Shown: positions 23,991 to 36,016 of the stretch, piece after piece | Layout: every line of letters begins with the position of its first letter | Position numbering within the stretch: position 1 is the first letter of the stretch | Source: Candidatus Poribacteria bacterium | GTDB lineage: Bacteria; Poribacteria; WGA-4E; PCPOR2b | Assembly (NCBI GenBank): GCA_965116925.1 | Contig: OZ220744.1 | Coordinates: 1,376,001-1,440,000, forward strand | DNA length: 64,000 nt | Direction of reading: 5' to 3' | The notes under the pieces: generated by a model | The model's database searches: none | What the model was told of the DNA's origin: nothing | What the model saw: only the letters and a program-made list of their open reading frames with translations | Position numbers and translations under genes: made by a program

Positions 23991-24186
23991 TGTCAACCTT
24001 TTATTTTAGCTGACGTTACAGTTAGTAGGGGCAGGAGTGACGCATTTGACAACGCAGGCTGATACCCATTTGCAATTCGGGTATATAGCAGTAACCAATC
24101 CTAAAAGCCCCAGCAGGGCGACATGTGTGTAACAAGAACCAACCTACACAATCCCAATGTACCGCTCCACACCGAAAGGATTAATC

Positions 24187-24621
24187 ATGAAAGCAACCTG
24201 TTTCCAATTACTTCATTGTATGATGCTGTTTGCTGCATGTATCAGTGCTATATATTGCATTGGTTGTGCGAACATTGATGATGTTCTCAAGGCTACCGGG
24301 GAACCGCCAGAAGGAGAGGGTGTTATCATTAGAGATATACCTATCCAAGAGATAGAAGTGCTACTTGCGGAGAGCGACCCCGTTCAAGTGACTGTTGAGG
24401 TCAATGGCTGGCTGCCAGATGGTTGTACCGAACACCATCAGACACATCTAACGCAGGAAGGAAACACTATCACTATCCAGATCACAAACATACGTCCGAG
24501 AGGTTTTGCTTGCGCGACGGTCGTGACAGAGTACCAGGAGCGGGTTTCTATCGGTACACTCCCTGCGGGTGATTATACAGTCATTGTCAACGGTGTGGAG
24601 CAGGAGTTTCGTGTCGATTGA
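24187..24621 (+). CDS. Hypothetical exported protein or lipoprotein
   Basis: AAAGGA RBS, hydrophobic leader, LPDGC...C pair and L..GDYTV.VNG. Confidence 0.7.
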   Translation: MKATCFQLLHCMMLFAACISAIYCIGCANIDDVLKATGEPPEGEGVIIRDIPIQEIEVLLAESDPVQVTVEVNGWLPDGCTEHHQTHLTQEGNTITIQITNIRPRGFACATVVTEYQERVSIGTLPAGDYTVIVNGVEQEFRVD

Positions 24622-24652
24622 TCTGACATTTTCCTGAGGGTTACTGTCGATC

Positions 24653-26914
24653 TTAAAAATTCAACCGATATAGGAGTTTTACATTCCTTCCCGACTCCGG
24701 CATCACCGATTTAATTCTCGAAAGATGTTGACGGTATTCGGCATCGAAAATATTCTCGACCGTGACAACCGCCTGATGCTGAAGTTGCCACACCGGAAAC
24801 GCCAATTGGATACCCGCATCGTAGACGACATACCCGTCGGTTGCCTCTTCAAATTCGCCAAGTCGGTGCTGACCATCTGAAAATCGAGCTGTGAAATGAA
24901 CGTTTAACGGAGGCGTAACGTATCGCAACGCTACTTTGCCGTTGAGTGGTGGGATACGTTCAAGCGGTAACCCGCTGGCCGTTAATGTCCCTTTGACGTA
25001 ACTCATGCTTGCCTGCGCCTGAAATCGTGGAATAATTTCAGTGTCAACGCTAAATTCGACACCATCAAGTACCGCGTCTTGTCCCTGATATTGATATATC
25101 CACAGCCACCCCGCTGCGCCACTCCCCCAATCCTTTTCACCTGTGTTGGTCTGAATCAGATAGCCGTAAATTTGGTTGCGAAAAACGGTGAGATTAAGTT
25201 TCAGCCGCTTGGCTGCATAGCGCAGGAATGCTTCTGTTCCTAAGCCATCCTCCGAGTCGAGTTCGGCGTTGCCAATTTCGTAGGAGTAGACTGCGAGATG
25301 AGGACCATCTGAAAAAAGTTCTTCGATCCCCGGCGTACGGAACGTCTTCATCAAGGTGGCTCCTGTTTCCAAGTGGTCATCCCAATGATAGATGCCCGAA
25401 ACTGCACTCGATACACCGCCGAAGTCCCGTCGTTCCACCGTTCCCGCGCGGGTGACAATACCTTCCTTAAACGGTTCAGCCCGCCTGACATCGTAGCGAA
25501 TCGCACCTTGCAGTGTTAAATCCTCGTTGAGTCGTTTCTGTTTCAAATAGAATCCCGCTAACGACATTTCCCGTGTGTGCGGTGTCCAGTAAAACCCACC
25601 GGTCGCATGGTCACGGTACTCGCCCCAAACCCCGGCAACCGCGTCGCCACGCATATAAGCCAGCGCGGAAACGTTGGTTGTCAGAACGCCAAACTCAACA
25701 CCGAGCCGGTTGTTCGATTCCCGCTCTTGATGTTGGTAGCGTGTGTAGGTCGAGTGCAGTTTCAGTTTCTCAAGAAACGATTGCTGAAATCCGTACTCAA
25801 AATCAGCCTCATACCGCTGGCGATCAAGGTCGATGGTGACGCCGTGGATATGTCCCTCCGGTGAACCGGGAACCCCATAATCTGAGCGGTAGCTACCGCC
25901 AGAAATCCCGATATGCCCCCAATCCTTGACCATTGAAAGACCTGTTGAAAAATTAGTTTGCGACAGGGCCGTGTTTTCTAAAATACCGATAGGGGTGTGC
26001 GTATCATCGGTGCTGCGGCGGTTCAACTCCAGTCGCCACGCAAAATCACCGATCGGTATCGTAAATCCCGTCGTTCCGGTCAACCCTGAATTGACCGATT
26101 CCCCCTGAAATGTGAGATTCATCGTTGGGCGACGGGGCAAGGTTTGTGGGATAGTTTCTCGCTTGACATTGACGACACCGCCGAGTGTGCTCGACCCATA
26201 AATGAGCGATGCCGGTCCGCGCGTAATCTCAATATTTGTTGCAGTGGTAGGGTCAATTGCGACCGCATGGTCCGCTGAGGAGGCTGATTTATCGCCGGTG
26301 CGTCCACCATCTTCGAGGATAAGCAGTCGATCGCCCCCCATGCCCCGGACGACCGGACGCGCGGTCGCTCTGCCCATTGTCCGCTGGGCAATCCCCACCT
26401 CCTCGCTAAGCGTCTCGGCTATGGTTGCTCCCATTTTCTGATCCAGTTCCTGGGCAGAGAGGTTCAGGTCGGTTGTTTTCTCAAAATGAGCATGCTCCTC
26501 GTCGCCGGGTGTGACAACAACCTCTCCGAGTTGGAGCGGATTGCGTTTCAATCTGATCGTCATCGTCATCGGATCTGTTTCGACAACGATTTTTTTACCT
26601 AACGTTTCATAGCCAACACGCTCAAATCGTAGCGTATATGTCCCTTGCACAATCTCGTCAAACCGAAACTCTCCGGTCCTACCGGTTCGGAACAAAGATA
26701 TTCCTTCTGCGTCGCGTAATAGGGATACGTGGACATCCACAAGGGGAGTTTCCGTCTCTGCATCAATCACCTCTCCTGAGATGGAGATATTGTGGGCAAA
26801 GGAGCTCCCTTTTATAAAACAGATGAGAAAAATAGCAGATAGCACAAGACGGAGCCACTTCACAGTAAATGTAATCAGTAACAACGTGCATCTAAAAAAA
26901 CAGGTAAACATCAT
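24653..26914 (-). CDS. TonB-dependent receptor (ZnuD-like) with N-terminal carboxypeptidase-regulatory-like domain
   Basis: ARPVVRG, DHAV, IEITRGPASLIYG plug, ELFSDGPH and C-terminal Phe; start after GGAGG. Confidence 0.92.
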   Translation of the reverse strand: MMFTCFFRCTLLLITFTVKWLRLVLSAIFLICFIKGSSFAHNISISGEVIDAETETPLVDVHVSLLRDAEGISLFRTGRTGEFRFDEIVQGTYTLRFERVGYETLGKKIVVETDPMTMTIRLKRNPLQLGEVVVTPGDEEHAHFEKTTDLNLSAQELDQKMGATIAETLSEEVGIAQRTMGRATARPVVRGMGGDRLLILEDGGRTGDKSASSADHAVAIDPTTATNIEITRGPASLIYGSSTLGGVVNVKRETIPQTLPRRPTMNLTFQGESVNSGLTGTTGFTIPIGDFAWRLELNRRSTDDTHTPIGILENTALSQTNFSTGLSMVKDWGHIGISGGSYRSDYGVPGSPEGHIHGVTIDLDRQRYEADFEYGFQQSFLEKLKLHSTYTRYQHQERESNNRLGVEFGVLTTNVSALAYMRGDAVAGVWGEYRDHATGGFYWTPHTREMSLAGFYLKQKRLNEDLTLQGAIRYDVRRAEPFKEGIVTRAGTVERRDFGGVSSAVSGIYHWDDHLETGATLMKTFRTPGIEELFSDGPHLAVYSYEIGNAELDSEDGLGTEAFLRYAAKRLKLNLTVFRNQIYGYLIQTNTGEKDWGSGAAGWLWIYQYQGQDAVLDGVEFSVDTEIIPRFQAQASMSYVKGTLTASGLPLERIPPLNGKVALRYVTPPLNVHFTARFSDGQHRLGEFEEATDGYVVYDAGIQLAFPVWQLQHQAVVTVENIFDAEYRQHLSRIKSVMPESGRNVKLLYRLNF

Positions 26915-27456
26915 TTCCTCCAGATATAAATAGATCGTCTTCCCAGCACCATTGCTGAGGCATACTAACACTAGCGTCAAATCAGCCGGGAAAGGCAGCA
27001 ATTAATTAAACAAAAACAGAAATATGGATTAGACCAAAAAATTAAACGGAGAACGTTGGTGGGGCACGACTTTGGATGCTTTTGTTGAGTGTTGTAGAAA
27101 TGAAAATTGAATCGAAAGGCGAGTGAATTGAGATGCACGTATCAACATTGGCAGTGTCAACAGGATCAATTTCTATACCGACGTGATTGGCACTGAAGAA
27201 ACAAGCAGAACAATCTGTCGAACAGTGGTTCGCATGGTCATGTTCGTGGTTATGGTCATGGCCATGTTCGTGTGGAAGTCCAACCAAGCTTATTGCCATC
27301 AGGCAATAAGAAATGCCCACCGCAATTATCCAGCTAGTTGGATTGATGTAGATTCGATCGCTCTGCAAGAGCCTTTACCTCTTTTAAGAGTCGGATATTT
27401 GGAAACTGAAGAAAAAAATCATAATACAAGGGAATAACTTTGATAATTTTTTATTT
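26879..27456 (-). repeat. Duplicated regulatory cassette, copy A (promoter + RAPP leader ORF + spacer + RBS + first ~12 codons)
   Basis: Colinear high identity with 33698-34266. Confidence 0.9.
27042..27368 (-). CDS. His/Cys-rich leader peptide with C-terminal RAPP (DUF2946-like candidate arrest peptide), copy A
   Basis: Hydrophobic N-terminus, HEHGHDHNHEHDH, CSTDCSAC and SRAPP four residues before the stop; GAGGT RBS. Confidence 0.8.
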   Translation of the reverse strand: MQSDRIYINPTSWIIAVGISYCLMAISLVGLPHEHGHDHNHEHDHANHCSTDCSACFFSANHVGIEIDPVDTANVDTCISIHSPFDSIFISTTLNKSIQSRAPPTFSV

Positions 27457-27594
27457 TGAAAATTATATGCAATAGTGCCGAAAGCCTAAATGATTAGGCT
27501 TTGGACTTCTTAGTGGTGGTGCGGGTATAGCAATGACTGGATTTGATCCCCAATAATGCTTTGGCTACGTTCTTTGGAGTATCAGGGATAAATT

Positions 27595-27669
27595 CTACAC
27601 GCTTGTCTTTGATTGGGCGTCCGAATGAATCAGGAAAATGGCGAATAGCAAAAGTCGTAGCCACTTCAT
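27595..27669 (-). pseudogene. N-terminal remnant of a TonB-receptor paralog
   Basis: MKWLRLLLFAIFLI versus VKWLRLVLSAIFLI at 26863, with mostly synonymous DNA differences. Confidence 0.6.
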
Positions 27670-27715
27670 GGAGGCACCGCTACGGTACGACAACTGGTGC
27701 CTCAAATTGTCATGC

Positions 27716-28825
27716 TTATCGTGCACGTTTTACCTCATCCAACTCTAATTGATAGACACCCATCAGCATCAAATCCTCCCGAAACTCCTGACCGACCGAA
27801 AGTTTACCAAAAACAGTGATTGGCATATCCATCACCGTTTGAATTTTCTGCTTTTTTGAGGATTCAACGTAGATAACCTCGTTGATACGGGGGGCAACGC
27901 CGAAACAGCACGACATTGTTGACTTAAGCAATAGGAACCTTTGCACTTTTCCCTTGTCAACGTCAATCGGGAGCATAAATCCCGTGATCGCAACCTTCTT
28001 TCCATCAATTTGCTTAACTTTGTCGGGAATCTCTGCGTCGTAGGAAAGCGAGGCGATGTATTCTGAGTCTGCCAACTGCCTCCAATCCGGCTCATCAAGC
28101 CAGTAGTCACCTAAGAAACCGAATGGCACGCGTAAGTAGTCGCCAACCATTTCGGTGGGAACGGCAATAGTTTCAGTGCTATCAATAGCAAACAGACTAA
28201 AGTTGATCGGCGTCGGAGAGGTCAATTCCGGCTCTGTCTCAACGTTGTAGTCAGCGAACTGGATTTCAAACCCACCGACGAGCCGTAGCACATCGCCCGG
28301 TAACCATTGGACAAACCGACTGTTTCTTGAAAAATAGGTAAACCGTAACTCCTTCAACTCCACCGACTTTTTGGCACCGTGTAACTCAAAGGTCGCTTTG
28401 GCATCAGTCTTGATGGGTAAGCCATCAACCAGTCGGACATCTTCCGCGACATTTAGGCTTTCAATCCGAAGGATAGCTTGCGGGTAGACATCAGCGTTCC
28501 ACCCAACCTTCTGTGGCTCTTCATCAACGCTGGTCTGCATTTTCAGACGTTTCATATCAAGTTGGAACATCGCCTTAAATGTCTTATGCAGTGCATCGGG
28601 GTCGAGCGCAATGGTTCCGTTGATACGTTCGGTTGTCGCCCGGAACTGACTGCCTCCAAACATGAACACATTTCTCTCTTTATCCAGCGTGAATGTTTTT
28701 AACTTCGCAGACGGGTCGTCTTGAGCGGAGGCAAAGCCAAATATCCCGAAGATTAACCCAAAAACCGTTGCATAAAAAACAAAACGTAATCCGTAAGAGG
28801 AGAATACGTTAACCATATTCCTCAC
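27716..28825 (-). CDS. YceI-like domain fused to DUF3299 (ZrgD-like)
   Basis: N-terminal YP.A...LHG.KK...F.DY pattern; C-terminal GKKVAITGFMLP and CCFGVAP.INE. Confidence 0.75.
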   Translation of the reverse strand: MRNMVNVFSSYGLRFVFYATVFGLIFGIFGFASAQDDPSAKLKTFTLDKERNVFMFGGSQFRATTERINGTIALDPDALHKTFKAMFQLDMKRLKMQTSVDEEPQKVGWNADVYPQAILRIESLNVAEDVRLVDGLPIKTDAKATFELHGAKKSVELKELRFTYFSRNSRFVQWLPGDVLRLVGGFEIQFADYNVETEPELTSPTPINFSLFAIDSTETIAVPTEMVGDYLRVPFGFLGDYWLDEPDWRQLADSEYIASLSYDAEIPDKVKQIDGKKVAITGFMLPIDVDKGKVQRFLLLKSTMSCCFGVAPRINEVIYVESSKKQKIQTVMDMPITVFGKLSVGQEFREDLMLMGVYQLELDEVKRAR

Positions 28826-29451
28826 TCCTTTTGGTCTAGCTGTATCCGATCCAGGTCAAGGTGGTAGATACCGGTAAGTACCACGCCTTCAAACTTTGCT
28901 CCGACGTGCAATGTACCTAACAAAGTTATCAGTACATCTTGATGGATATCGATTTTCTTCTTTTCTGGTACTCTAACATACACCCATTCGTTCAGACGGG
29001 GCATGTTACCAAAACAGCACGCCATCTGATCTTTGAGCAACATAAAGGTTCGAAGATTGCCCTCCGACATATCAAGCGGTAACATAAATCCTTGAATCTC
29101 AACATTCTTACCGTCCATTGCTTGAATCAGCGGGGAAATTTGTTCATTAAGTTTCAACGAGGCGATGTATGCCGGATCTTCCATTTTCGCCCAATTCGGC
29201 TCCCTGAACGGGTAGCTAGTGAGCATATTAAAGGTCAGGGATTGATATGCCTCTGTCGCTGATGGTGCTCCCTGCACAGTACCCGATTCGAGCGTTTGAC
29301 CAGTCCGGTCACTCACACCTCGAAGGGCGCGCATCGGGTGCGATTTCGGTAACAGCTGAAAAACGCCCAGCGACAACCCGACGACAACTGCGCTAACCAT
29401 TGTAAAGTTCAGCCACGCGCTGCGTCGATTTTTTGTTTTAAGCATTTTCAT
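28822..29451 (-). CDS. DUF3299 (ZrgD-like) membrane-anchored protein
   Basis: DGKNVEIQGFMLP and ACCFGNMP motifs. Confidence 0.85.
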   Translation of the reverse strand: MKMLKTKNRRSAWLNFTMVSAVVVGLSLGVFQLLPKSHPMRALRGVSDRTGQTLESGTVQGAPSATEAYQSLTFNMLTSYPFREPNWAKMEDPAYIASLKLNEQISPLIQAMDGKNVEIQGFMLPLDMSEGNLRTFMLLKDQMACCFGNMPRLNEWVYVRVPEKKKIDIHQDVLITLLGTLHVGAKFEGVVLTGIYHLDLDRIQLDQKE

Positions 29452-29467
29452 CCCTTCCACCCCCTGA

Positions 29468-30001
29468 CTAATGTTCATCATGCTCACTATGTGTTTCTTC
29501 ATTGCCTTCGGGGAACTCAAAGTCTATGTCGGTGAACATCTGACCTTTTATGTCAATCGAAACAATTTCTGCATGAAATTCCGATACACCCTGTAATGTG
29601 TCCGATTGTGCTGCAAATTGAGAAGTATCTCCTTCGGTTTCTCCGGTCAGAACGTTCGCAACCCCTGAAAGTTGCAACATAAATTCAGACTGGATATCTT
29701 CTCGATGTATTTTGAGTTCAATTGTCTTCTGCGAGAGTCGTACCGGTTTTTCCGCTTCACCGTCCAGCACGTAGCCAATAAGTTTTCCGGTCGTTTGGTC
29801 TAGCACAAACTCAATGTGTGCGAACTCATCGCCAAAGACAACCAATGTCCCACCGTGAGGTGCCGTATGTTCATGATGTGTATCGGTTTCGGGCGTTGCC
29901 GCCTGTTCGTGATGCTGCTCTTCCTTTTTCTCACAACTGAGTTGGGCAATGACAACAGATAAAATCGCCGTCCATATCAAGAAAGTTCTTTGGATTTTCA
30001 T
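29468..30001 (-). CDS. His-rich lipoprotein
   Basis: Lipobox-like QLSC, HHEHTAPHGG and terminal HSEHDEH. Confidence 0.8.
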   Translation of the reverse strand: MKIQRTFLIWTAILSVVIAQLSCEKKEEQHHEQAATPETDTHHEHTAPHGGTLVVFGDEFAHIEFVLDQTTGKLIGYVLDGEAEKPVRLSQKTIELKIHREDIQSEFMLQLSGVANVLTGETEGDTSQFAAQSDTLQGVSEFHAEIVSIDIKGQMFTDIDFEFPEGNEETHSEHDEH

Positions 30002-30088
30002 GATGATTTTCCTTTCAGCAAGACTCAATGAATAGAGAAAGGTGCTTAATTAACAAAATTTGGAACATTTCAACACGCTTGTATGGTA

Positions 30089-30374
30089 TATTAACTTAAG
30101 TTGCTAGTGATGTGCGAATCGATAAGATTCCCCTTATACTCGCAGGTCGGGCATCTTGCCCGATCTACAAAGCCCCAGCGGGGCGATATGTGTATAGCAC
30201 GTCGGTAAACCAATACCTCCAAGCCCCAGCGAGGCGACATGTGTATCCGAAGGGTGGAATATAAGAAGCAATGAATCAGCCAACTAATGAACCGATGAAC
30301 TCTCCGATAAATCTGGATTTTCAACTTGAACAGTGTAGAAACGATTTTCTCATAACTAGCGCCAAAGGTTAATA
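30089..30374. repeat. MITE-like element with REP hairpin and AAGCCCCAGCGRGGCGAYATGTGTA direct repeats
   Basis: TATTAAC..GCTAGT imperfect TIRs; repeats at 30170 and 30221, with a third copy at 24105. Confidence 0.55.
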
Positions 30375-30434
30375 CGTCGTTAGGTCTGTACATTCCGGCA
30401 CTTGTAACGCCAAATCAGTTAATAGGAGAATCCA

Positions 30435-30629
30435 ATGATTAAAGATTCCCTCATCGTTGAAGATATTCGTCGCGTCCGCCGCGCGATTTCAGAACGATTT
30501 GCCCATGATGTGAATGGATATATTGACTACCTTCAAAAAAAACGAGAGTCATCAGATCACGCGGATATCGTGGTCCCCCCTTCAGAACCGCCGCCAAATA
30601 CAGAAAAAGCCACGCCCCACAAGGTTTAG
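30435..30629 (+). CDS. Small hypothetical protein (antitoxin-like)
   Basis: AGGAG RBS; D.IVEDIRRVR...F..D pattern. Confidence 0.55.
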   Translation: MIKDSLIVEDIRRVRRAISERFAHDVNGYIDYLQKKRESSDHADIVVPPSEPPPNTEKATPHKV

Positions 30630-31891
30630 CTTATGGGTGTTAAATTCGTCGCAACATCTGTCTGGTACGCCTTGAAAGCAGGCACAATGCCAGCGATCAC
30701 CCCCAGAAGTATGACGCAGACTGGCACGACTACGAACGCGAGATGAAATTTCAACAGGTCTAAAACGATACCCGTCTGAGCGCGAACAATTGCTGATGCT
30801 GAGGTAAAAATCGCACCGTAGACTATAAATCCTATGATGACCCCTAATGCTGCGATCGATGCCGCTTCTAACACAATTACCGTAAACACCGTTTTACGAC
30901 GTGCGCCGATCGATCGCAAAATAGCGAACTCGCGCCGCCGTTCGTTGATGGAGTTATAGATGCTTGCGAGAATTGAACCCGCTGCAACAAGGACAACAAG
31001 ATAAGAAACGAGTGCCAGAATCTGATTCATCCAACCGATTTTGTTAAACAGATTAGCCATCACTGCCCCGATGGGCCATGCCAACGTTGCCACCTTCCCC
31101 TGTTTGTTGATCATGGCATCCATCATGAAACCGATCTGTGGATTCCGAAACTTCAGCATGACTGCGCTGACCTCTTTGTGTGCGTCGGGGATCTCTTGAC
31201 CGGGTTGGGCAACATATTCCTCACCACTTCCGCGCAACACATGGCCCTCCAGCCGATAAACTCCCTCGATCGGAATCCAGATGACACGGTCGGAGGGTGA
31301 ATTAGTCGCTTCGAGCACACCAACAACAACATATTGTTCATCATGCCGCATTGATTCATCAAACACCAAGCCGTGATACGGGTTAAACGTATCCCCTACC
31401 GTTAAGCCCAACTTCTGTGCGGCATAACTGCCAATGACTGCTTCCTGATTATTGGGATCGAAAAAACGTCCGTTCCCGCGTATCCGAAACCGAACCCCTT
31501 TGCGGTATTCAAACTCCGTAAACAACGCCGTTGTCGTGCCGACGATACGGAAACCGTAATAATTGTCTCCAAGCGCGTAGGGAATAGCGAGTTCGACACG
31601 CGGATCATTTTTCACCGCTTGATACATCGTCCACGGGATATTCCCCGGTGAGGTTTCGAGATGAAATACGGTGTTCAACACCAATTGTAACGGACTGCCA
31701 CGTGCTCCCAAGACCGCATCAAAGCCAATCGGACCTCCCGTGAATGCTGAAACGGATTGTGATCTGATGGCGATAACCGCCATGACAAGTCCCGTACCAA
31801 GCGCGATTGACAATGTGGTAATGAGGGTCGAAAGCGCGTGTTGTCGAAGACTGCGTTGAACGATGAAAAACAACCCGATCCGTTTTTTCAT
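30626..31891 (-). CDS. MacB/FtsX-type ABC permease (ZrgC-like)
   Basis: GARGSPLQLVLNTVFH and ERRREFAILRSIGA motifs. Confidence 0.92.
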   Translation of the reverse strand: MKKRIGLFFIVQRSLRQHALSTLITTLSIALGTGLVMAVIAIRSQSVSAFTGGPIGFDAVLGARGSPLQLVLNTVFHLETSPGNIPWTMYQAVKNDPRVELAIPYALGDNYYGFRIVGTTTALFTEFEYRKGVRFRIRGNGRFFDPNNQEAVIGSYAAQKLGLTVGDTFNPYHGLVFDESMRHDEQYVVVGVLEATNSPSDRVIWIPIEGVYRLEGHVLRGSGEEYVAQPGQEIPDAHKEVSAVMLKFRNPQIGFMMDAMINKQGKVATLAWPIGAVMANLFNKIGWMNQILALVSYLVVLVAAGSILASIYNSINERRREFAILRSIGARRKTVFTVIVLEAASIAALGVIIGFIVYGAIFTSASAIVRAQTGIVLDLLKFHLAFVVVPVCVILLGVIAGIVPAFKAYQTDVATNLTPIS

Positions 31892-31956
31892 TGGCTCATG
31901 TTAAGGGTCCACGGTAGGCGGGGCATCTTGCCCCGCTTTTCCTTATCAACTTTCTC

Positions 31957-32619
31957 TTATACACAATTCACTTGTGCGAAATCCTTTGCATCTTCAAATT
32001 GCCCTAAAACTTCTGAATCGTGGCTAACGATGAGCAATGCGGCGCTGTTTTCGTGGCAAATTTCACGGATAAGTGTTACCGCTTCGTTGGCATGATGATA
32101 ATCCAGATTGCCGGTCGGTTCATCGGCGAGTACGAGCCGTGGTCGATTTGCTACGGCGCGGGCAACCGCAACACGTTGCTGCTGCCCGACCGATAGCTGC
32201 GAAGGGCGATACCCCATCCGATCCCCTAGTCCGACCCGTTCAAGCAGATGTTGGGCAAAATTGGCGTCAATCCCTTTTCCAAACATCATTCCGAGCATGA
32301 CATTCTCTAAAGCTGTGTAGCCAGCAAGTAGATTGAAGGTTTGGAACATATACCCGATATAGTGGGCGCGTAACCTATCCCGATCAGATTCTGAGAGAGC
32401 AGTCATCTCCTCGCCAGCGAGCACAATGCTTCCGTTGTCGGCTTGCAGAATTCCAGCGATCAGATTCAGAAATGTCGTTTTTCCAGCACCGCTGCTCCCT
32501 CTGAGCGCAATCTGTTTTCCTGCGTCTATCTCAAAGTGGGGAACATTAATGATGTGGCTCCGTGAACCATCAGGTGAGGCGTAAGCCTTTTCAAGGTTCG
32601 TGACTGTCAAAAGGGACAT
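31957..32619 (-). CDS. ABC transporter ATPase (LolD/ZrgB-like)
   Basis: GSSGAGKT, LSVGQQQR and LADEPTGNLD motifs. Confidence 0.95.
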   Translation of the reverse strand: MSLLTVTNLEKAYASPDGSRSHIINVPHFEIDAGKQIALRGSSGAGKTTFLNLIAGILQADNGSIVLAGEEMTALSESDRDRLRAHYIGYMFQTFNLLAGYTALENVMLGMMFGKGIDANFAQHLLERVGLGDRMGYRPSQLSVGQQQRVAVARAVANRPRLVLADEPTGNLDYHHANEAVTLIREICHENSAALLIVSHDSEVLGQFEDAKDFAQVNCV

Positions 32620-32631
32620 TACAGTCTCCGA

Positions 32632-33030
32632 TTAGTCTTCTAGCATTTTGCAGTGTTGACATGCGCGGCACAAGCGGCGATTAAGAAGGTGACCTGCCAT
32701 AAGTAGAATCCCGCCGCAAGCCGTGAAGATGCTTTCGTACTCTTCTGGCACCCGGAAGCGTGCAATAAATATACATACGAACGCACCGCCTAGTATCAGA
32801 AATAATTGCCATTTTCGATGGTGTTGATAACCCCACGTCAGACTCCCTACGGCGAGTCCCACTGCTGCGACGATCATCACCAATTCGACAGATTCACCGA
32901 TCAGAAATCCAAGACCTATGAGCGGTAGGGCGATTATCAACAACGGAGTTGCCATACAGTGGAGGGCGCATGCAAAAGAGAGGCATGCCCCAACATTATC
33001 TACAAGTGAGTGATTCAGATATCTTTTCAA
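32632..33030 (-). CDS. MerC-domain membrane protein
   Basis: SFACALHC, four TM helices and C-terminal HLLN..LC..C..C. Confidence 0.85.
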   Translation of the reverse strand: MKRYLNHSLVDNVGACLSFACALHCMATPLLIIALPLIGLGFLIGESVELVMIVAAVGLAVGSLTWGYQHHRKWQLFLILGGAFVCIFIARFRVPEEYESIFTACGGILLMAGHLLNRRLCRACQHCKMLED

Positions 33031-33077
33031 TTGTTTCCCCTAAAATCATGTGATACTTATTCTTGCTTTCACTTTGC

Positions 33078-33131
33078 TTTGCCTATATTGCCAAACCCAG
33101 ATCAGCCATTAGATTTGGCAATATAGGCAAA
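33078..33131. terminator. 18-bp perfect inverted repeat (terminator or mRNA-stabilising hairpin)
   Basis: TTTGCCTATATTGCCAAA-N18-TTTGGCAATATAGGCAAA just downstream of the lipoprotein gene. Confidence 0.6.
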
Positions 33132-33154
33132 ACAATTTACCAAACAAACGCCCT

Positions 33155-33733
33155 TTACGGCGTAACCGTTACCGGAATTGAGAGTGCCGCCGTAAAATCA
33201 GGATGGTCGCCGTGCAAAAGTTGGAGTTTCGCTGATGTTTCTCCAGCTTTCAGCCCTTTCACCTCAAAGGTGAATTTCTCGGCAAGTTCATCGTCGTGGT
33301 GTTCCTCCTCTTCAGCGTGTTCATCTTCATGCTCATGTTCTTCACCTTCGTGAAGGTGGATTTCAACGATTGATGAGTCAAATTCGCTGAGAGCTAAAGC
33401 AAACACCTCTTCTTCGCCATGGTCATGTTCGTCCTCTTCTTCGGGGCTTTCAGGCAGAAATTCCTCTTCATCGTGGTCAAGGAATGCGGCAGCAATCTCT
33501 AATTCCTCCCCAACTTTGAGGGTAATACCGCCCTCATGTTCTCCTTCAAATTGGCGGTAAATCTGATTTCCGTCAACCTTGAGGACAAAACCGTCCGCAT
33601 CGGCATGGAATGGTTCGTCGTCATGGTCATGGCCATCGTCAATAATGGGATTATCATCTTCGCCACAAGCGGCGAACAGTACAACAAATGCGAGTAATAA
33701 CAACGTGAATCTAAAAAAACAGGTAAACATCAT
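33155..33733 (-). CDS. His/acid-rich lipoprotein
   Basis: FAAC lipobox, several HDHD/HEHE tracts and LLHGDHPDF. Confidence 0.85.
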   Translation of the reverse strand: MMFTCFFRFTLLLLAFVVLFAACGEDDNPIIDDGHDHDDEPFHADADGFVLKVDGNQIYRQFEGEHEGGITLKVGEELEIAAAFLDHDEEEFLPESPEEEDEHDHGEEEVFALALSEFDSSIVEIHLHEGEEHEHEDEHAEEEEHHDDELAEKFTFEVKGLKAGETSAKLQLLHGDHPDFTAALSIPVTVTP

Positions 33734-34266
33734 TTCCTCCAGATATAAATAGATCGTGTTTCCCGGCATCACCACTTAGGCAAACTAACACCACAGTCAA
33801 CTCCGCAGGGAAAAGGTATAAATTGATTAAATGAAAAACAAAAGTATAAGTTAGGCTATAAATTAAGTGGAGAACGCTGGTGGCGCACGACTTTGGATAC
33901 TGTTGTTAAGTGTCGTAGAAATGAAAGCAAAATAGAAAGGCGGGTGAATTGAGATGCACGTATCAACATTGGTAATGTCAACCGGATCAAATTCTATACC
34001 GACATGATTGGCACTGAAAAAACACGCAGAGCAATCTGTAGAACCGTGGTTCGTATGGTCATGTTCATGATCATGGTCATGTGGAAGTCCAACCAAGCTG
34101 ATTGCCATCAGGCAATAAGAAATGCCCATCGCAATTATCCAGCTAGTTGGATTGATGTGGATTCGATTGCTCTGCAAGAGCCTTTACCTCTCTCAAGAGT
34201 GGGATATTTGGAAACTGAACCGAAAAATTATAACACAAGCGGATTGACTTTGACAATTTTTTATTT
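33698..34266 (-). repeat. Duplicated regulatory cassette, copy B
   Basis: Matches 26879-27456; minus-strand TTGTCA-N18-TATAAT at 34256-34227. Confidence 0.9.
33863..34177 (-). CDS. His/Cys-rich leader peptide with C-terminal RAPP, copy B
   Basis: HDHDHEHDH, DCSAC and SRAPPAFST*; paralog of 27042-27368. Confidence 0.8.
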   Translation of the reverse strand: MQSNRIHINPTSWIIAMGISYCLMAISLVGLPHDHDHEHDHTNHGSTDCSACFFSANHVGIEFDPVDITNVDTCISIHPPFYFAFISTTLNNSIQSRAPPAFST

Positions 34267-34375
34267 CACAAATCGGCTGCCAAGGGTATAATTGAGAGGT
34301 GAAGTAGGGATTCCCTATCTACGGTAATGGGCTAATAAACTAATGAACCAATGAACTCCTAGAAAAGAAAGGATA

Positions 34376-35068
34376 TTGAGCAAAATGTATAGATTCACCC
34401 CTGTTTTGATAGTTGCGTGTATTGTGGCAATTACGAGTTTTTTAGTTCAAGCGGAGAGCGATGAAAGTGAATCGGCAGCCGAAAAATCCCGTATTCCCGG
34501 CTGGTTCCGCGTCGATACCGATAGCTTAGGTACGCATTTCCTTATCGGTGCTACTCATTCCGTCGGTGGACTTTCGCTTGAGTCTAATATCTTCATCGAC
34601 GACACCATCGGGGAGTTTGACCTCGGTGTTTCTATCCCCGCAGTTAAAGGCGATGGTTTCAGCGTCACACTGCTCCCCATGCTCGGCCTTGGATATGACT
34701 ATGCCGCGCCAGATGGGCCCCTCGCAATCTATCCACACCTCTTTGTTTTTATGCCTGCTGGAAAACTCTTCTTGAAATCGTGGACAATCGGCACCCTCTA
34801 TTCCGTGTTTGACGAAGACAGGAACAACGAGGTATACACCCGCAATTATATAACCTATTCCCTCAACAAAACCCTTGCCATCGGTCCGCAAGTCGAAGCT
34901 GTGATTGTGGGGAACGGTGTTGGGCTTGTCAGTTTGGTTGTCGGTCCGCGCATCAACATCGGCTACGGTGAAAATAACACCCTCGGCATTCTTGTTGGGT
35001 ATGACACCAAAAAAGAGGAAGACCAAACCGGGTTGACCGGAAGGTTGAGTTTCACCCGCAGGTGGTAA
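34376..35068 (+). CDS. Hypothetical outer-membrane beta-barrel-like protein
   Basis: Signal peptide, amphipathic strands and aromatic C-terminus (LSFTRRW). Confidence 0.65.
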   Translation: MSKMYRFTPVLIVACIVAITSFLVQAESDESESAAEKSRIPGWFRVDTDSLGTHFLIGATHSVGGLSLESNIFIDDTIGEFDLGVSIPAVKGDGFSVTLLPMLGLGYDYAAPDGPLAIYPHLFVFMPAGKLFLKSWTIGTLYSVFDEDRNNEVYTRNYITYSLNKTLAIGPQVEAVIVGNGVGLVSLVVGPRINIGYGENNTLGILVGYDTKKEEDQTGLTGRLSFTRRW

Positions 35069-35138
35069 CAAAGCATATTAACGGTAGGCGGGGCTGCCCC
35101 GATAAAATCGGGATTTCGCTACGTTCAACTTGCCCCGC

Positions 35139-35774
35139 TTACTTGACGATGACCATCTTCCGTGTGGTGGAAAAATCGCCTGCTATCAGCGTGTAAAAGT
35201 ACGCACCACTTGCCACCCGCTCACCGACATCACTTCTCCCATCCCAATGGATTGCCTTTGATCGATTCTCATAGGCAGATGCAATCCGATATCCAACCTC
35301 AAGTGTGCGGACAACATAACCCGTTTTGTCATAGATGGTCAAGGTGACGAAAGCATCCTCTGCCAATCGATACGGTATCCATGTCTCTAGGATTAAACGG
35401 ATTTGGATAGTTGGGTAACAGTTCCATTTCTTTTGGGGTGAGGGATACTAAAAGCTGTTCAAGCACCAGAAATCCACGTTTCATGATGGAATTCCTAACT
35501 TCAAGTGCCCGTGCGTCGGTCAGCCAACCCTGAACCTCTACCGTTGTGAGTGTCTCAGGGAGTTGCAGATGCGCTGAAGGCGCAGCTGCCGCACCGTCAA
35601 ACATCCCCGCAACCATTATTAGATCCAGAACATTGACCATCCCATCTCCGTTGACATCTACCGCTTTAGCGCGGAGGTTTGGATCGGGGATGTTTACAAT
35701 TTGTGCCGTTACGGGCAGCGGAGAAGTAAGCCAAATCAATAAAAAAAAGGAAAATAAAGAATTAGTTTTTTCAT
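35139..35774 (-). pseudogene. Degenerate secreted protein: signal + LRR N-cap + dockerin + FlgD-like tail, with the core missing
   Basis: VNIPDPNLRA is joined directly to DVNGDGMVNVLDL; NYPNPFNP...WDG...VASG.YFY. Frameshifts at the A8 run (35741-35748) and near 35388. Confidence 0.8.
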
Positions 35775-35795
35775 AGATTCCCTTCTTGAGAATAC

Positions 35796-36016
35796 TATAG
35801 TGAATTCAAAAAATAAAGAAACACTTGCGCCCCCCCGGTAGGTGCGGTTTGATGAAGTTTAAGTATTTAAATCGGTAATCCCTATTTTCCTCGAAACATA
35901 CGGTAGGCGCGGTTTTCAACCGCGCCGGTGTCGCTAGCAAATTACCGAACTGTTTTTTTAATTTTCATGTAACCGCACCGGTTTGGCGTGTCCCATTAAT
36001 TCTAAAATCTACTATA
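35796..36016. mobile_element. MITE A with MITE B (35852-35968) inserted in its REP loop
   Basis: Family A ends; GGTAGGTGCGGTTT | B | GTAACCGCACC. B has IS630-like TIRs and its own intact REP at 35902-35926. Confidence 0.85.

What the first reader, a model, noticed from the sequence alone, without database searches (positions are those of the whole stretch)
26879..34266. Twin His/Cys-rich RAPP leader peptides heading two metal-handling transcription units: candidate Zn/Ni/Co-sensing ribosome-arrest regulon
Seen: two paralogous 104-108 aa ORFs (27042-27368, 33863-34177). Each has an N-terminal hydrophobic segment, a His tract, a CxxC motif and SRAPP four residues before the stop. Each is the first ORF behind a conserved promoter and lies ~130 nt before a metal-related gene. 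Copy B leads His-lipoprotein / MerC / ABC ATPase / permease / His-lipoprotein / two DUF3299 genes; copy A leads a ZnuD-like TonB receptor. Established: RAPP-type motifs stall ribosomes (ApdA/ApdP), and the DUF2946 uORF CruR (CxxC + RAPP) controls a TonB receptor in response to copper. ZrgABCD-type clusters are normally under Zur control. Inference: the nascent exported peptide senses metal through His/Cys and the stall sets downstream expression, placing a Zrg-like operon under arrest-peptide control. I am not aware of this combination being described.
Basis: partly seen in the sequence, partly recalled or inferred. Interest (0 to 1): 0.85.

Follow-up and report, generated by a model that had tools for sequence, protein, structure and literature searches.

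The report
Twin ribosome-stalling leaders for zinc genes
Two near-identical small genes in a Poribacteria genome each encode a histidine/cysteine-rich peptide ending in a known ribosome-stalling motif and sit just before zinc-type uptake genes, so they are likely an untested zinc version of a switch so far shown only for copper.

Summary
Observation confirmed. Both ORFs are real genes: relatives occur in 130 of 151 sampled Poribacteria genomes, under purifying selection. CxxC is present in 76 of 76 copies, RAPP in 74 (RSPP in 2), with 44 residues between them in 73, matching CruR's 45. They score below the DUF2946 cut-off, so they are CruR-like, not formal members. Corrections: (1) This is not a two-unit regulon but one operon. 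Copy A is a duplicated promoter-leader cassette inserted before its last gene. (2) The pairing is not unseen. A 2025 paper's source data list 137 RAPP leaders before ZrgA-family genes, many annotated DUF2607, the family of Vibrio ZrgD. Its text never mentions zinc or those families. (3) Zinc is favoured over Ni/Co: ZnuD-like receptor, ZnuA-type and ZIP-like targets, and Zur-like boxes before 7 relatives' copies, none here. Likely mechanism: stalling keeps downstream genes on and metal releases it. A C-rich, G-poor stretch suggests Rho-dependent termination; ribosome-binding-site masking is a rival. Stalling and metal sensing are untested. This scan found the same system in another Poribacteria genome, and similar leaders in other genomes.

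The parts
34227..34256 (-). Promoter-like site of copy B (TTGTCA-18-TATAAT, extended -10)
   Evidence: similar motif before most g1, g5 and g11 copies
34187..34190 (-). Shine-Dalgarno-like GAGG, 9 nt before the TTG start of leader B
   Evidence: sequence
33863..34177 (-). Leader B, 104 aa: hydrophobic segment, His tract, CxxC, 44 residues, RAPP, 4 residues, stop
34046..34081 (-). His tract of leader B (H33-H44)
34022..34033 (-). CxxC of leader B (C49, C52)
   Evidence: both Cys invariant in 76 of 76 copies
33878..33889 (-). RAPP codons of leader B, predicted stall site
   Evidence: stall geometry for CruR from PMC12992588
33731..33862 (-). Intergenic leader B: U-rich, G-poor first 50 nt, imperfect stem (33760-33814), SD GGAGG at 33736-33740
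33155..33730 (-). His/acid-rich lipoprotein 1, predicted Ig-like fold; the usual first target of the leader
32632..33030 (-). MerC-family membrane protein
   Evidence: PF03203
31957..32619 (-). ABC ATPase, LolD/MacB type
30626..31891 (-). MacB/FtsX-type permease, related to the permease of the Pseudomonas PA4063-66-type operon
29468..30028 (-). His-rich lipoprotein 2, no family assigned
28822..29520 (-). DUF3299 (ZrgE-family) protein
27716..28825 (-). YceI-like plus DUF3299 fusion protein
26879..27456 (-). Duplicated cassette: promoter, leader, intergenic region, SD and about 12 first codons of lipoprotein 1, placed in front of the TonB gene
27418..27446 (-). Promoter-like site of copy A (TTATCA-17-TATGAT)
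   Evidence: aligned with the B site
27042..27368 (-). Leader A, 108 aa: His tract 27225-27272, CxxC 27201-27212, RAPP 27057-27068
26912..27041 (-). Intergenic leader A: U-rich first 50 nt, imperfect stem (26940-26993), SD GGAGG at 26917-26921
24653..26911 (-). ZnuD-like TonB-dependent receptor whose first codons come from the duplicated cassette

Best explanation
Both small genes are conserved leaders with the layout of the copper sensor CruR (hydrophobic segment, His tract, CxxC, 44 residues, RAPP), and they likely stall the ribosome at RAPP when metal, probably zinc, is scarce, which would keep the downstream uptake genes switched on. Shown: the genes, their motifs, their first position before zinc-type genes, and that copy A is a duplicated cassette inside one operon. 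Inferred from CruR: the ribosome halts with the two Pro codons in the P and A sites and covers a C-rich, G-poor stretch of mRNA, so Rho cannot load and transcription runs on. Inferred: when zinc binds the His tract and CxxC, which at 47-50 residues from the stall have just left the exit tunnel, folding pulls the chain free, the ribosome leaves, and Rho stops transcription in the 130-nt gap. Copy A would add a second checkpoint, with its own promoter, for the outer-membrane receptor.
For: Purifying selection: dN/dS 0.33 for A against B; median 0.32 and below 1 in 61 of 61 usable comparisons with A. CxxC 76 of 76, RAPP 74 and RSPP 2 of 76, stop 4 residues later in 66 of 76. Spacing 44 in 73 of 76, 43-45 in all, against 45 +/- 1-2 in DUF2946 (PMC9426467). 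DUF2946 is the top Pfam family of the alignment (20 of 74 members at E<=1, best 3e-4), and the profile reaches a protein over the DUF2946 cut-off (P0037). RAPP supports arrest in several peptide contexts, and CruR arrest was shown by toeprint (PMC12992588). Zinc: ZnuD best hit; DUF3299 plus MacB-type ABC as in zinc-repressed zrg and PA4063-66; one relative's leader heads a ZnuA-family binding protein and ABC-3 permease, another operon holds a ZIP-like gene (below cut-off); a Zur-like palindrome lies about 195 nt before 7 of 74 copies. A separate, unrelated RAPP leader serves the copper-export locus of the same genome. Rho: gene present; the 143 nt around the stop hold 38 C/15 G (A) and 39 C/12 G (B), a skew reached by a fraction 0.000 of 4,622 long-ORF ends; fourfold-degenerate third positions before RAPP are C 267: G 144 against 16,478: 18,687 genome-wide; the gap tolerates insertions (200-385 nt in 11 of 58).
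Against: No experiment on stalling, metal or termination. Neither window peptide scores on DUF2946. All transporter labels are below curated cut-offs or general; the receptor has no His-rich cluster (at most 3 His per 30 residues). The related MacB-type system in Pseudomonas was reported to export pyochelin-cobalt, not to import zinc (PMC11481552, passages). CxxC is the Cu site in CruR. The C-skew comes partly from the RAPP codons and the copies are kin, not independent. In 25 of 61 copies, mostly one genus, the ribosome-covered stretch pairs unusually well with the next start region, which favours the rival. The Zur-like pattern was taken from one site of this genome.
Confidence: 0.55

Rival explanations
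1. Same stalling leader, but control is at translation: the last codons of the leader pair with the next gene's ribosome-binding site or start region, and the stalled ribosome frees it, as for SecM and CutF.
For: The 24 nt after the A-site Pro pair with the next start region better than 90% of other windows of the same leader in 25 of 61 copies: 15 of 18 in genus g11, 2 of 2 in g3, 7 of 34 in g1 plus g4, 1 of 7 in g5. Both window folds show the SD paired. Two earlier scan notes on other genomes proposed this.
Against: In the two window copies the pairing is ordinary (-8.5 and -9.1 kcal/mol; matched by 27-29% of other windows), and their SD folds with the downstream coding sequence, which a stalled ribosome would not open. 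Masking the footprint changes SD opening energy by a median 0.24 kcal/mol over 59 copies, more than 1 in 20, the wrong way by 0.5 or more in 12. No consensus structure; the conserved stem has no two-sided change in 48 sequences.
Confidence: 0.25
2. The leader stalls and senses a metal, but the metal is Cu, Co or Ni rather than Zn.
For: CxxC plus RAPP senses Cu in CruR, with moderate cross-talk from Zn (PMC9426467). The Pseudomonas relative of the ABC system handles a cobalt complex. His tracts bind Ni and Co (own knowledge).
Against: No copper genes follow any of the 76 leaders examined; the genome's copper-export locus has its own unrelated RAPP leader; ZnuD, ZnuA-family, ZIP-like targets and Zur-like boxes all point to zinc starvation.
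Confidence: 0.2
3. The leader stalls but reports membrane export or disulfide formation, not metal; the His tract is incidental.
For: RAPP peptides also head sec and thioredoxin/Dsb genes (PMC12992588); the hydrophobic segment is in 74 of 74 copies; His-tract length varies from 2 to 12 His.
Against: All identified targets are metal-handling genes; HxH before CxxC and a His six residues after it are at least 88% conserved.
Confidence: 0.08
4. The product is a small membrane-anchored metal-binding protein and RAPP has no regulatory role.
For: His-rich peptides can buffer metal (own knowledge). Vibrio zrgD knockouts had no growth effect under chelators (PMC9820375, passage citing its ref. 15).
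Against: RAPP is avoided in ordinary proteins (PMC12992588 abstract); fixed 44-residue spacing and fixed first position; the cassette was copied with its gap and SD in front of new targets several times. A clean zrgD deletion could simply remove the brake.
Confidence: 0.05

Closest known systems
CruR (Bp2923, Pfam DUF2946/PF11162) of Bordetella pertussis; PMC9426467 (read: abstract, introduction, results parts 1, 3 and 4 of 7, section 10, searches of text and 3 supplements); arrest shown in PMC12992588 (passages)
   Same: First gene of the operon, N-terminal hydrophobic segment, CxxC, 44-45 residues, RAPP 3-4 residues from the end, long gap, TonB receptor target, C-over-G stretch at the 3' end.
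   Different: Below the DUF2946 cut-off; His tract directly before CxxC; targets are zinc-type, not copper genes; duplicated within one operon; phylum not among those named in section 10.
ZrgD (Pfam DUF2607/PF10795), first gene of Vibrio zrgABCDE; PMC9817125 and PMC9820375 (passages); sequences in source data of PMC12992588 (file 8, rows seen)
   Same: About 100 aa, one hydrophobic segment, His cluster then Cys, RAPP near the end, heading an operon with a MacB-type ABC system and DUF3299. Counted by eye in three rows: CxxC-44-RAPP in two, a single Cys 44 residues before R in one.
   Different: Only 2 of 74 members touch the DUF2607 model (best E 0.041); the next gene here is not ZrgA; the Vibrio operon is also under Zur. 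The papers seen call ZrgD a hypothetical protein of unknown function.
CutF of Rhodobacter capsulatus; bioRxiv 10.1101/2025.02.05.636593 (abstract and discussion read; supplements closed)
   Same: Exported nascent leader with Cys motif and Pro-rich end that controls the next metal gene by stalling.
   Different: CutF uses CxxxC and PPP, depends on EF-P, stalls in the presence of Cu and opens an SD hairpin for a detoxifying oxidase; here the targets look like uptake genes and no consistent hairpin was found.
ZrgABCDE / PA4063-PA4066 zinc-starvation systems; PMC9817125, PMC11481552 (passages)
   Same: ABC ATPase, MacB-type permease and DUF3299 in the same order.
   Different: No DUF2796/ZrgA; two His-rich lipoproteins, MerC, a YceI-DUF3299 fusion and a ZnuD-like receptor instead; no Zur-like box at these promoters. 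The Pseudomonas and Phaeobacter records seen have no annotated leader.
ApdA/ApdP and SecM arrest peptides; PMC10951233 (passages)
   Same: [quoted passage not shown]
   Different: They monitor protein export and head sec genes; no metal site.

Membership tests
CruR / DUF2946 | Score over the PF11162 cut-off | tested here: not met
   No hit for either window peptide; 20 of 74 relatives at E<=1, best 3e-4; 34 of 96 profile hits at E<=0.05, 1 over the cut-off
CruR / DUF2946 | Invariant CxxC | tested here: met
   76 of 76
CruR / DUF2946 | RAPP near the C-terminus | tested here: met
   RAPP 74, RSPP 2 of 76
CruR / DUF2946 | CxxC-RAPP spacing 45 +/- 1-2 | tested here: met
   44 in 73, 43 in 1, 45 in 2; definition
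CruR / DUF2946 | N-terminal export signal or membrane segment | tested here: met
   Hydrophobic 19-mer of at least 1.6 in 74 of 74; hydropathy only, cleavage not predicted
CruR / DUF2946 | First gene of an operon, long gap to the next gene | tested here: met
   Gap 129-385 nt in 58 copies with a located SD
CruR / DUF2946 | Copper-homeostasis genes downstream | tested here: not met
   Zinc-type genes instead
CruR / DUF2946 | Translation arrest at RAPP, released by metal | not testable with these tools
   Needs toeprinting and reporters
CruR / DUF2946 | Rho-dependent termination in the gap | tested here: inconclusive
   Rho present and strong C-over-G skew; indirect
ZrgD / DUF2607 | Score over the PF10795 cut-off | tested here: not met
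ZrgD / DUF2607 | Lies directly before DUF2796/ZrgA | tested here: not met
   Next gene is an Ig-like His lipoprotein
ZrgABCDE / PA4063-66 | ABC ATPase plus MacB-type permease plus DUF3299 | tested here: met
ZrgABCDE / PA4063-66 | ZrgA (DUF2796) binding protein | tested here: not met
   No Pfam hit; profile probability 2.5% and 4% against a DUF2796 protein; no ZrgA among the listed fold matches (the lipoprotein 2 model is weak, pLDDT 62)
ZrgABCDE / PA4063-66 | Zur box at the promoter | tested here: not met
   Best 6 mismatches of 16 at both window promoters; 2 or fewer before 7 of 74 relatives' copies; pattern from one site beside the Zur-like gene

The most novel reading that the evidence does not exclude
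His-tract RAPP leaders form a widespread zinc-sensing branch of ribosome-arrest switches. In these Poribacteria the leader has replaced Zur at the main zinc-starvation operon and spreads to new targets as a copy-and-paste cassette, and the long-known 'hypothetical' ZrgD of Vibrio (DUF2607) is the same kind of switch working under Zur. That would be the first protein-based, post-transcriptional zinc sensor in bacteria, and testable in a fast-growing laboratory species.
Probability: 0.45. Interest if true: 0.8.

Novelty: new variant of a known kind. Interest (0 to 1): 0.52.

Why it matters
Metal sensing by a stalled nascent peptide has been shown only for copper (CruR, CutF) in the papers found, and the CruR paper notes that no zinc riboswitch is known. 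A zinc version would give bacteria a translation-level zinc control beside, or instead of, Zur. The most useful result here is the link between two published data sets: Vibrio zrgD is DUF2607, and DUF2607 proteins ending in RAPP stand before ZrgA genes in a ribosome-arrest survey that did not discuss them. This moves the test from an uncultured symbiont to cultivable bacteria and offers a function for a DUF family. The anatomy itself is a known kind and this scan has met it repeatedly, which limits the surprise.

Tried and rejected
Rfam scan of 24000-36000: 5 matches at E<=5, all far below gathering scores and none in the two gaps; no riboswitch. Intrinsic terminator in the gaps: none in A, one weak match in B, at chance level. 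Consensus fold of 48 gaps: almost no structure; the visible stem is 85.6% paired but has no two-sided change and does not beat shuffles. SD unmasking by single-sequence folding: inconsistent (the two window copies were missed by that script's pattern and one of its 59 rows had a wrong SD). Zur box at the window promoters: not found. ZrgA identity of the His lipoproteins: rejected. Getting ZrgD sequences by search: a metagenome scan with the published Vibrio Zur site gave 3 unrelated loci, a protein search gave only the query, plasmid records gave leaderless zrg-type operons. RNA-library contigs of related strains (4 of 13 runs laid): one contig bridges 34204 to 27063 and three begin at 34204-34220 near the predicted start, but contigs break at repeats, DNA may be present and no silent control was laid, so this is not used as evidence. 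ESM Atlas: top 30 clusters unnamed, nearest named cluster DUF2946 at 16% of members, a lead only. No complex prediction was run.

Full report
Observation. Both ORFs are in the sequence as described: A at 27042-27368 and B at 33863-34177, minus strand. They begin at TTG behind a GAGG element and end in SRAPP plus four residues. The receptor's best matches are ZnuD in NCBIfam (E 6.6e-54, far below the cut-off) and in the PDB. All but one of the 37 related loci from named genomes are titled Candidatus Poribacteria.

Are they genes? A RAPP-like motif near a stop occurs in 108 of 82,605 frames of this genome, so the motif alone proves little. Comparison does. A protein search found relatives in 48 of 61 genomes, and a profile found them in 130 of 151 genomes of the phylum: 129 of 139 in the four families of this order and 0 of 11 in the other families sampled. 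I fetched 58 regions and extracted 77 leader frames, 76 of which reach the C-terminal region. Two further matches were read separately: one intact with RAPP, one with an internal stop. One N-terminal fragment was not fetched. The start column is TTG in 66, ATG in 6, GTG in 1 and CTA in 1 of 74 complete copies. Both Cys, the Arg and both Pro are invariant; Ala is Ser in 2. RAPP is written with five Arg codons and all four Pro codons; dN/dS is 0.33 for A against B and below 1 in all 61 usable comparisons with A, 11 being dropped for saturated or tiny dS.

What kind of gene? CruR of Bordetella is defined by CxxC, RAPP three residues from the end, 45 +/- 1-2 residues between them, an export signal, first position and a long gap (PMC9426467). 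Here the spacing is 44 in 73 of 76 copies, and a hydrophobic segment is in 74 of 74. The Pfam model is not reached: no hit for the window peptides, 20 of 74 relatives at E<=1. A profile search of 1.84 billion representatives gave 96 hits; 91 have CxxC and a RAPP-like motif, 88 of them spaced 43-46; 34 touch DUF2946 at E<=0.05 and one passes its cut-off. So the peptides work like CruR by anatomy and are distant kin, but I do not file them as DUF2946 members.

One operon, not two. The two copies are alike from the promoter through the first dozen codons of the next gene, so the receptor starts with the same residues as lipoprotein 1. In three genomes of the same genus with a single leader, the receptor overlaps the YceI-DUF3299 gene by 11 nt as the last gene of the operon. 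In more distant families the order is leader, lipoprotein 1, receptor. The tree needs at least three changes of target label on starred branches, with receptor-linked copies in separate clades in genera g1 and g11 (one row is mislabelled, a split lipoprotein gene). No terminator-like site lies before promoter A. Copy A is therefore a duplicated cassette inside the operon, and such copying happened more than once.

Which metal? The first gene after the leader is lipoprotein 1 in 51, the receptor in 22 and unassigned in 3 of 76. In one of the three the leader heads an unassigned gene, a ZnuA-family binding protein and an ABC-3 permease; another operon has a ZIP-like gene below cut-off. The ATPase, MacB-type permease and DUF3299 match the zinc-repressed zrg and PA4063-66 systems, but no ZrgA is present: lipoprotein 1 folds as an Ig-like domain and lipoprotein 2 matches nothing. 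The Pseudomonas system was reported to export a cobalt complex, so direction and cargo are open. The genome has a Zur-like gene with a perfect palindrome beside it. That pattern is absent from both window promoters (6 mismatches) but present with at most 2 mismatches before 7 of 74 relatives' copies, all in g11. The copper-export locus has its own unrelated RAPP leader. Zinc starvation is the best reading; it is guilt by association.

How the stall would act. Both known outputs make a stall switch the next gene on. For the Rho route: Rho is encoded; the region around the stop is more C-skewed than a fraction 0.000 of 4,622 long-ORF ends can match; synonymous sites before RAPP favour C over G against the genome trend; the first 50 nt after the stop are 27-29 U with 2-6 G; the gap takes insertions up to 385 nt. 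For SD masking: folding gives no consistent gain from a stalled ribosome, no consensus structure and no covariation; but the covered stretch pairs well with the next start region in 25 of 61 copies, mostly in g11, and not in the window's copies. I favour Rho for this genome, with SD masking possible in other lineages. That arrest occurs with the two Pro codons in the P and A sites is taken from CruR and ApdA/ApdP, and RAPP supports arrest in several contexts. Whether the metal is met in the cytoplasm (CruR) or the periplasm (CutF) is not resolved.

What is known. The source data of PMC12992588, Fig. 4B, list 137 RAPP against 2 AAPP small ORFs before DUF2796 genes, a 268.5-fold enrichment. Of 32 DUF2607 rows seen out of 40, 26 lie before DUF2796. 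In Vibrio parahaemolyticus zrgA is DUF2796 and zrgD is DUF2607, and ZrgD is described as a 101-aa hypothetical protein with one membrane helix. Several rows also show RAPP leaders before 'zinc-regulated' TonB receptors. The main text never names zinc, DUF2796 or DUF2607. The held file is cut and one supplement was not searched; Poribacteria, MerC and DUF3299 were not found in what was searched. Six literature searches showed no paper on a zinc-responsive arrest peptide or on ZrgD as a leader; most subscription papers are not in the library, and bioRxiv supplements were closed. The scan's own notes hold the same system in another Poribacteria genome and eight similar leaders in other genomes; a search for ZrgD with DUF2607 found no note. 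These notes are not independent support.

Verdict. A real, conserved CruR-like leader, a His-rich variant aimed at zinc-type genes, duplicated as a cassette. New variant of a known kind. Leader-with-stall about 0.85; zinc about 0.6-0.65; the full Rho model 0.55. Interest 0.52, carried mainly by the testable link to ZrgD.

Noticed in passing
L001:11695-12159 (-), outside the window: A third, unrelated RAPP leader (154 aa, Cys-Cys pairs, no CxxC) heads a DUF3347-like gene, an outer-membrane efflux protein and a multicopper oxidase. Found in 34 of 61 genomes; RAPP in 20 of the 20 loci read. A likely copper-export switch.
   Followed up: partly
PMC12992588 supplement file 8 (not a locus): DUF2607 proteins end in RAPP; of 32 rows seen out of 40, 26 lie before DUF2796/ZrgA, 4 before TonB receptors and 2 before porins. 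The table is selected for RAPP and was cut when stored.
   Followed up: partly
L092:1180-1205 and 1340-1360: A perfect palindrome and a second near-copy lie between a Zur-like gene (best NCBIfam Zur, E 5e-38, below cut-off) and a divergent ZnuA-family gene; likely the Zur operator of this genome.
   Followed up: yes
L122, L115, L120, L123, L124 about 195-200 nt before the leader: In genus g11 an extra upstream promoter-like site overlaps a Zur-like box, so Zur and the leader may act in series there.
   Followed up: partly
L054, L055, L057 (genomes G021, G023, G027): A MerC-like sequence runs in frame into the TonB receptor, giving 864-872 aa frames; a fusion of an inner-membrane protein with an outer-membrane receptor is odd and may be a lost stop.
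   Followed up: no
L053:9708-9989 (-): The one leader copy seen with an internal stop; lipoprotein 1, MerC and the ABC genes are missing behind it and the YceI-DUF3299 match is in two pieces, so it looks like a decaying duplicate.
   Followed up: partly
window 30030-30625 and many relatives' gaps: Palindromic repeat-like insertions of varying length lie between the permease and lipoprotein 2 and inside leader gaps; the window also has a 64-aa ORF with no family at 30435-30629 (+).
   Followed up: no
window 34376-35068 (+): A 230-aa secreted-looking protein with no Pfam family is transcribed away from leader B, with its own promoter-like site at 34265-34292.
   Followed up: no
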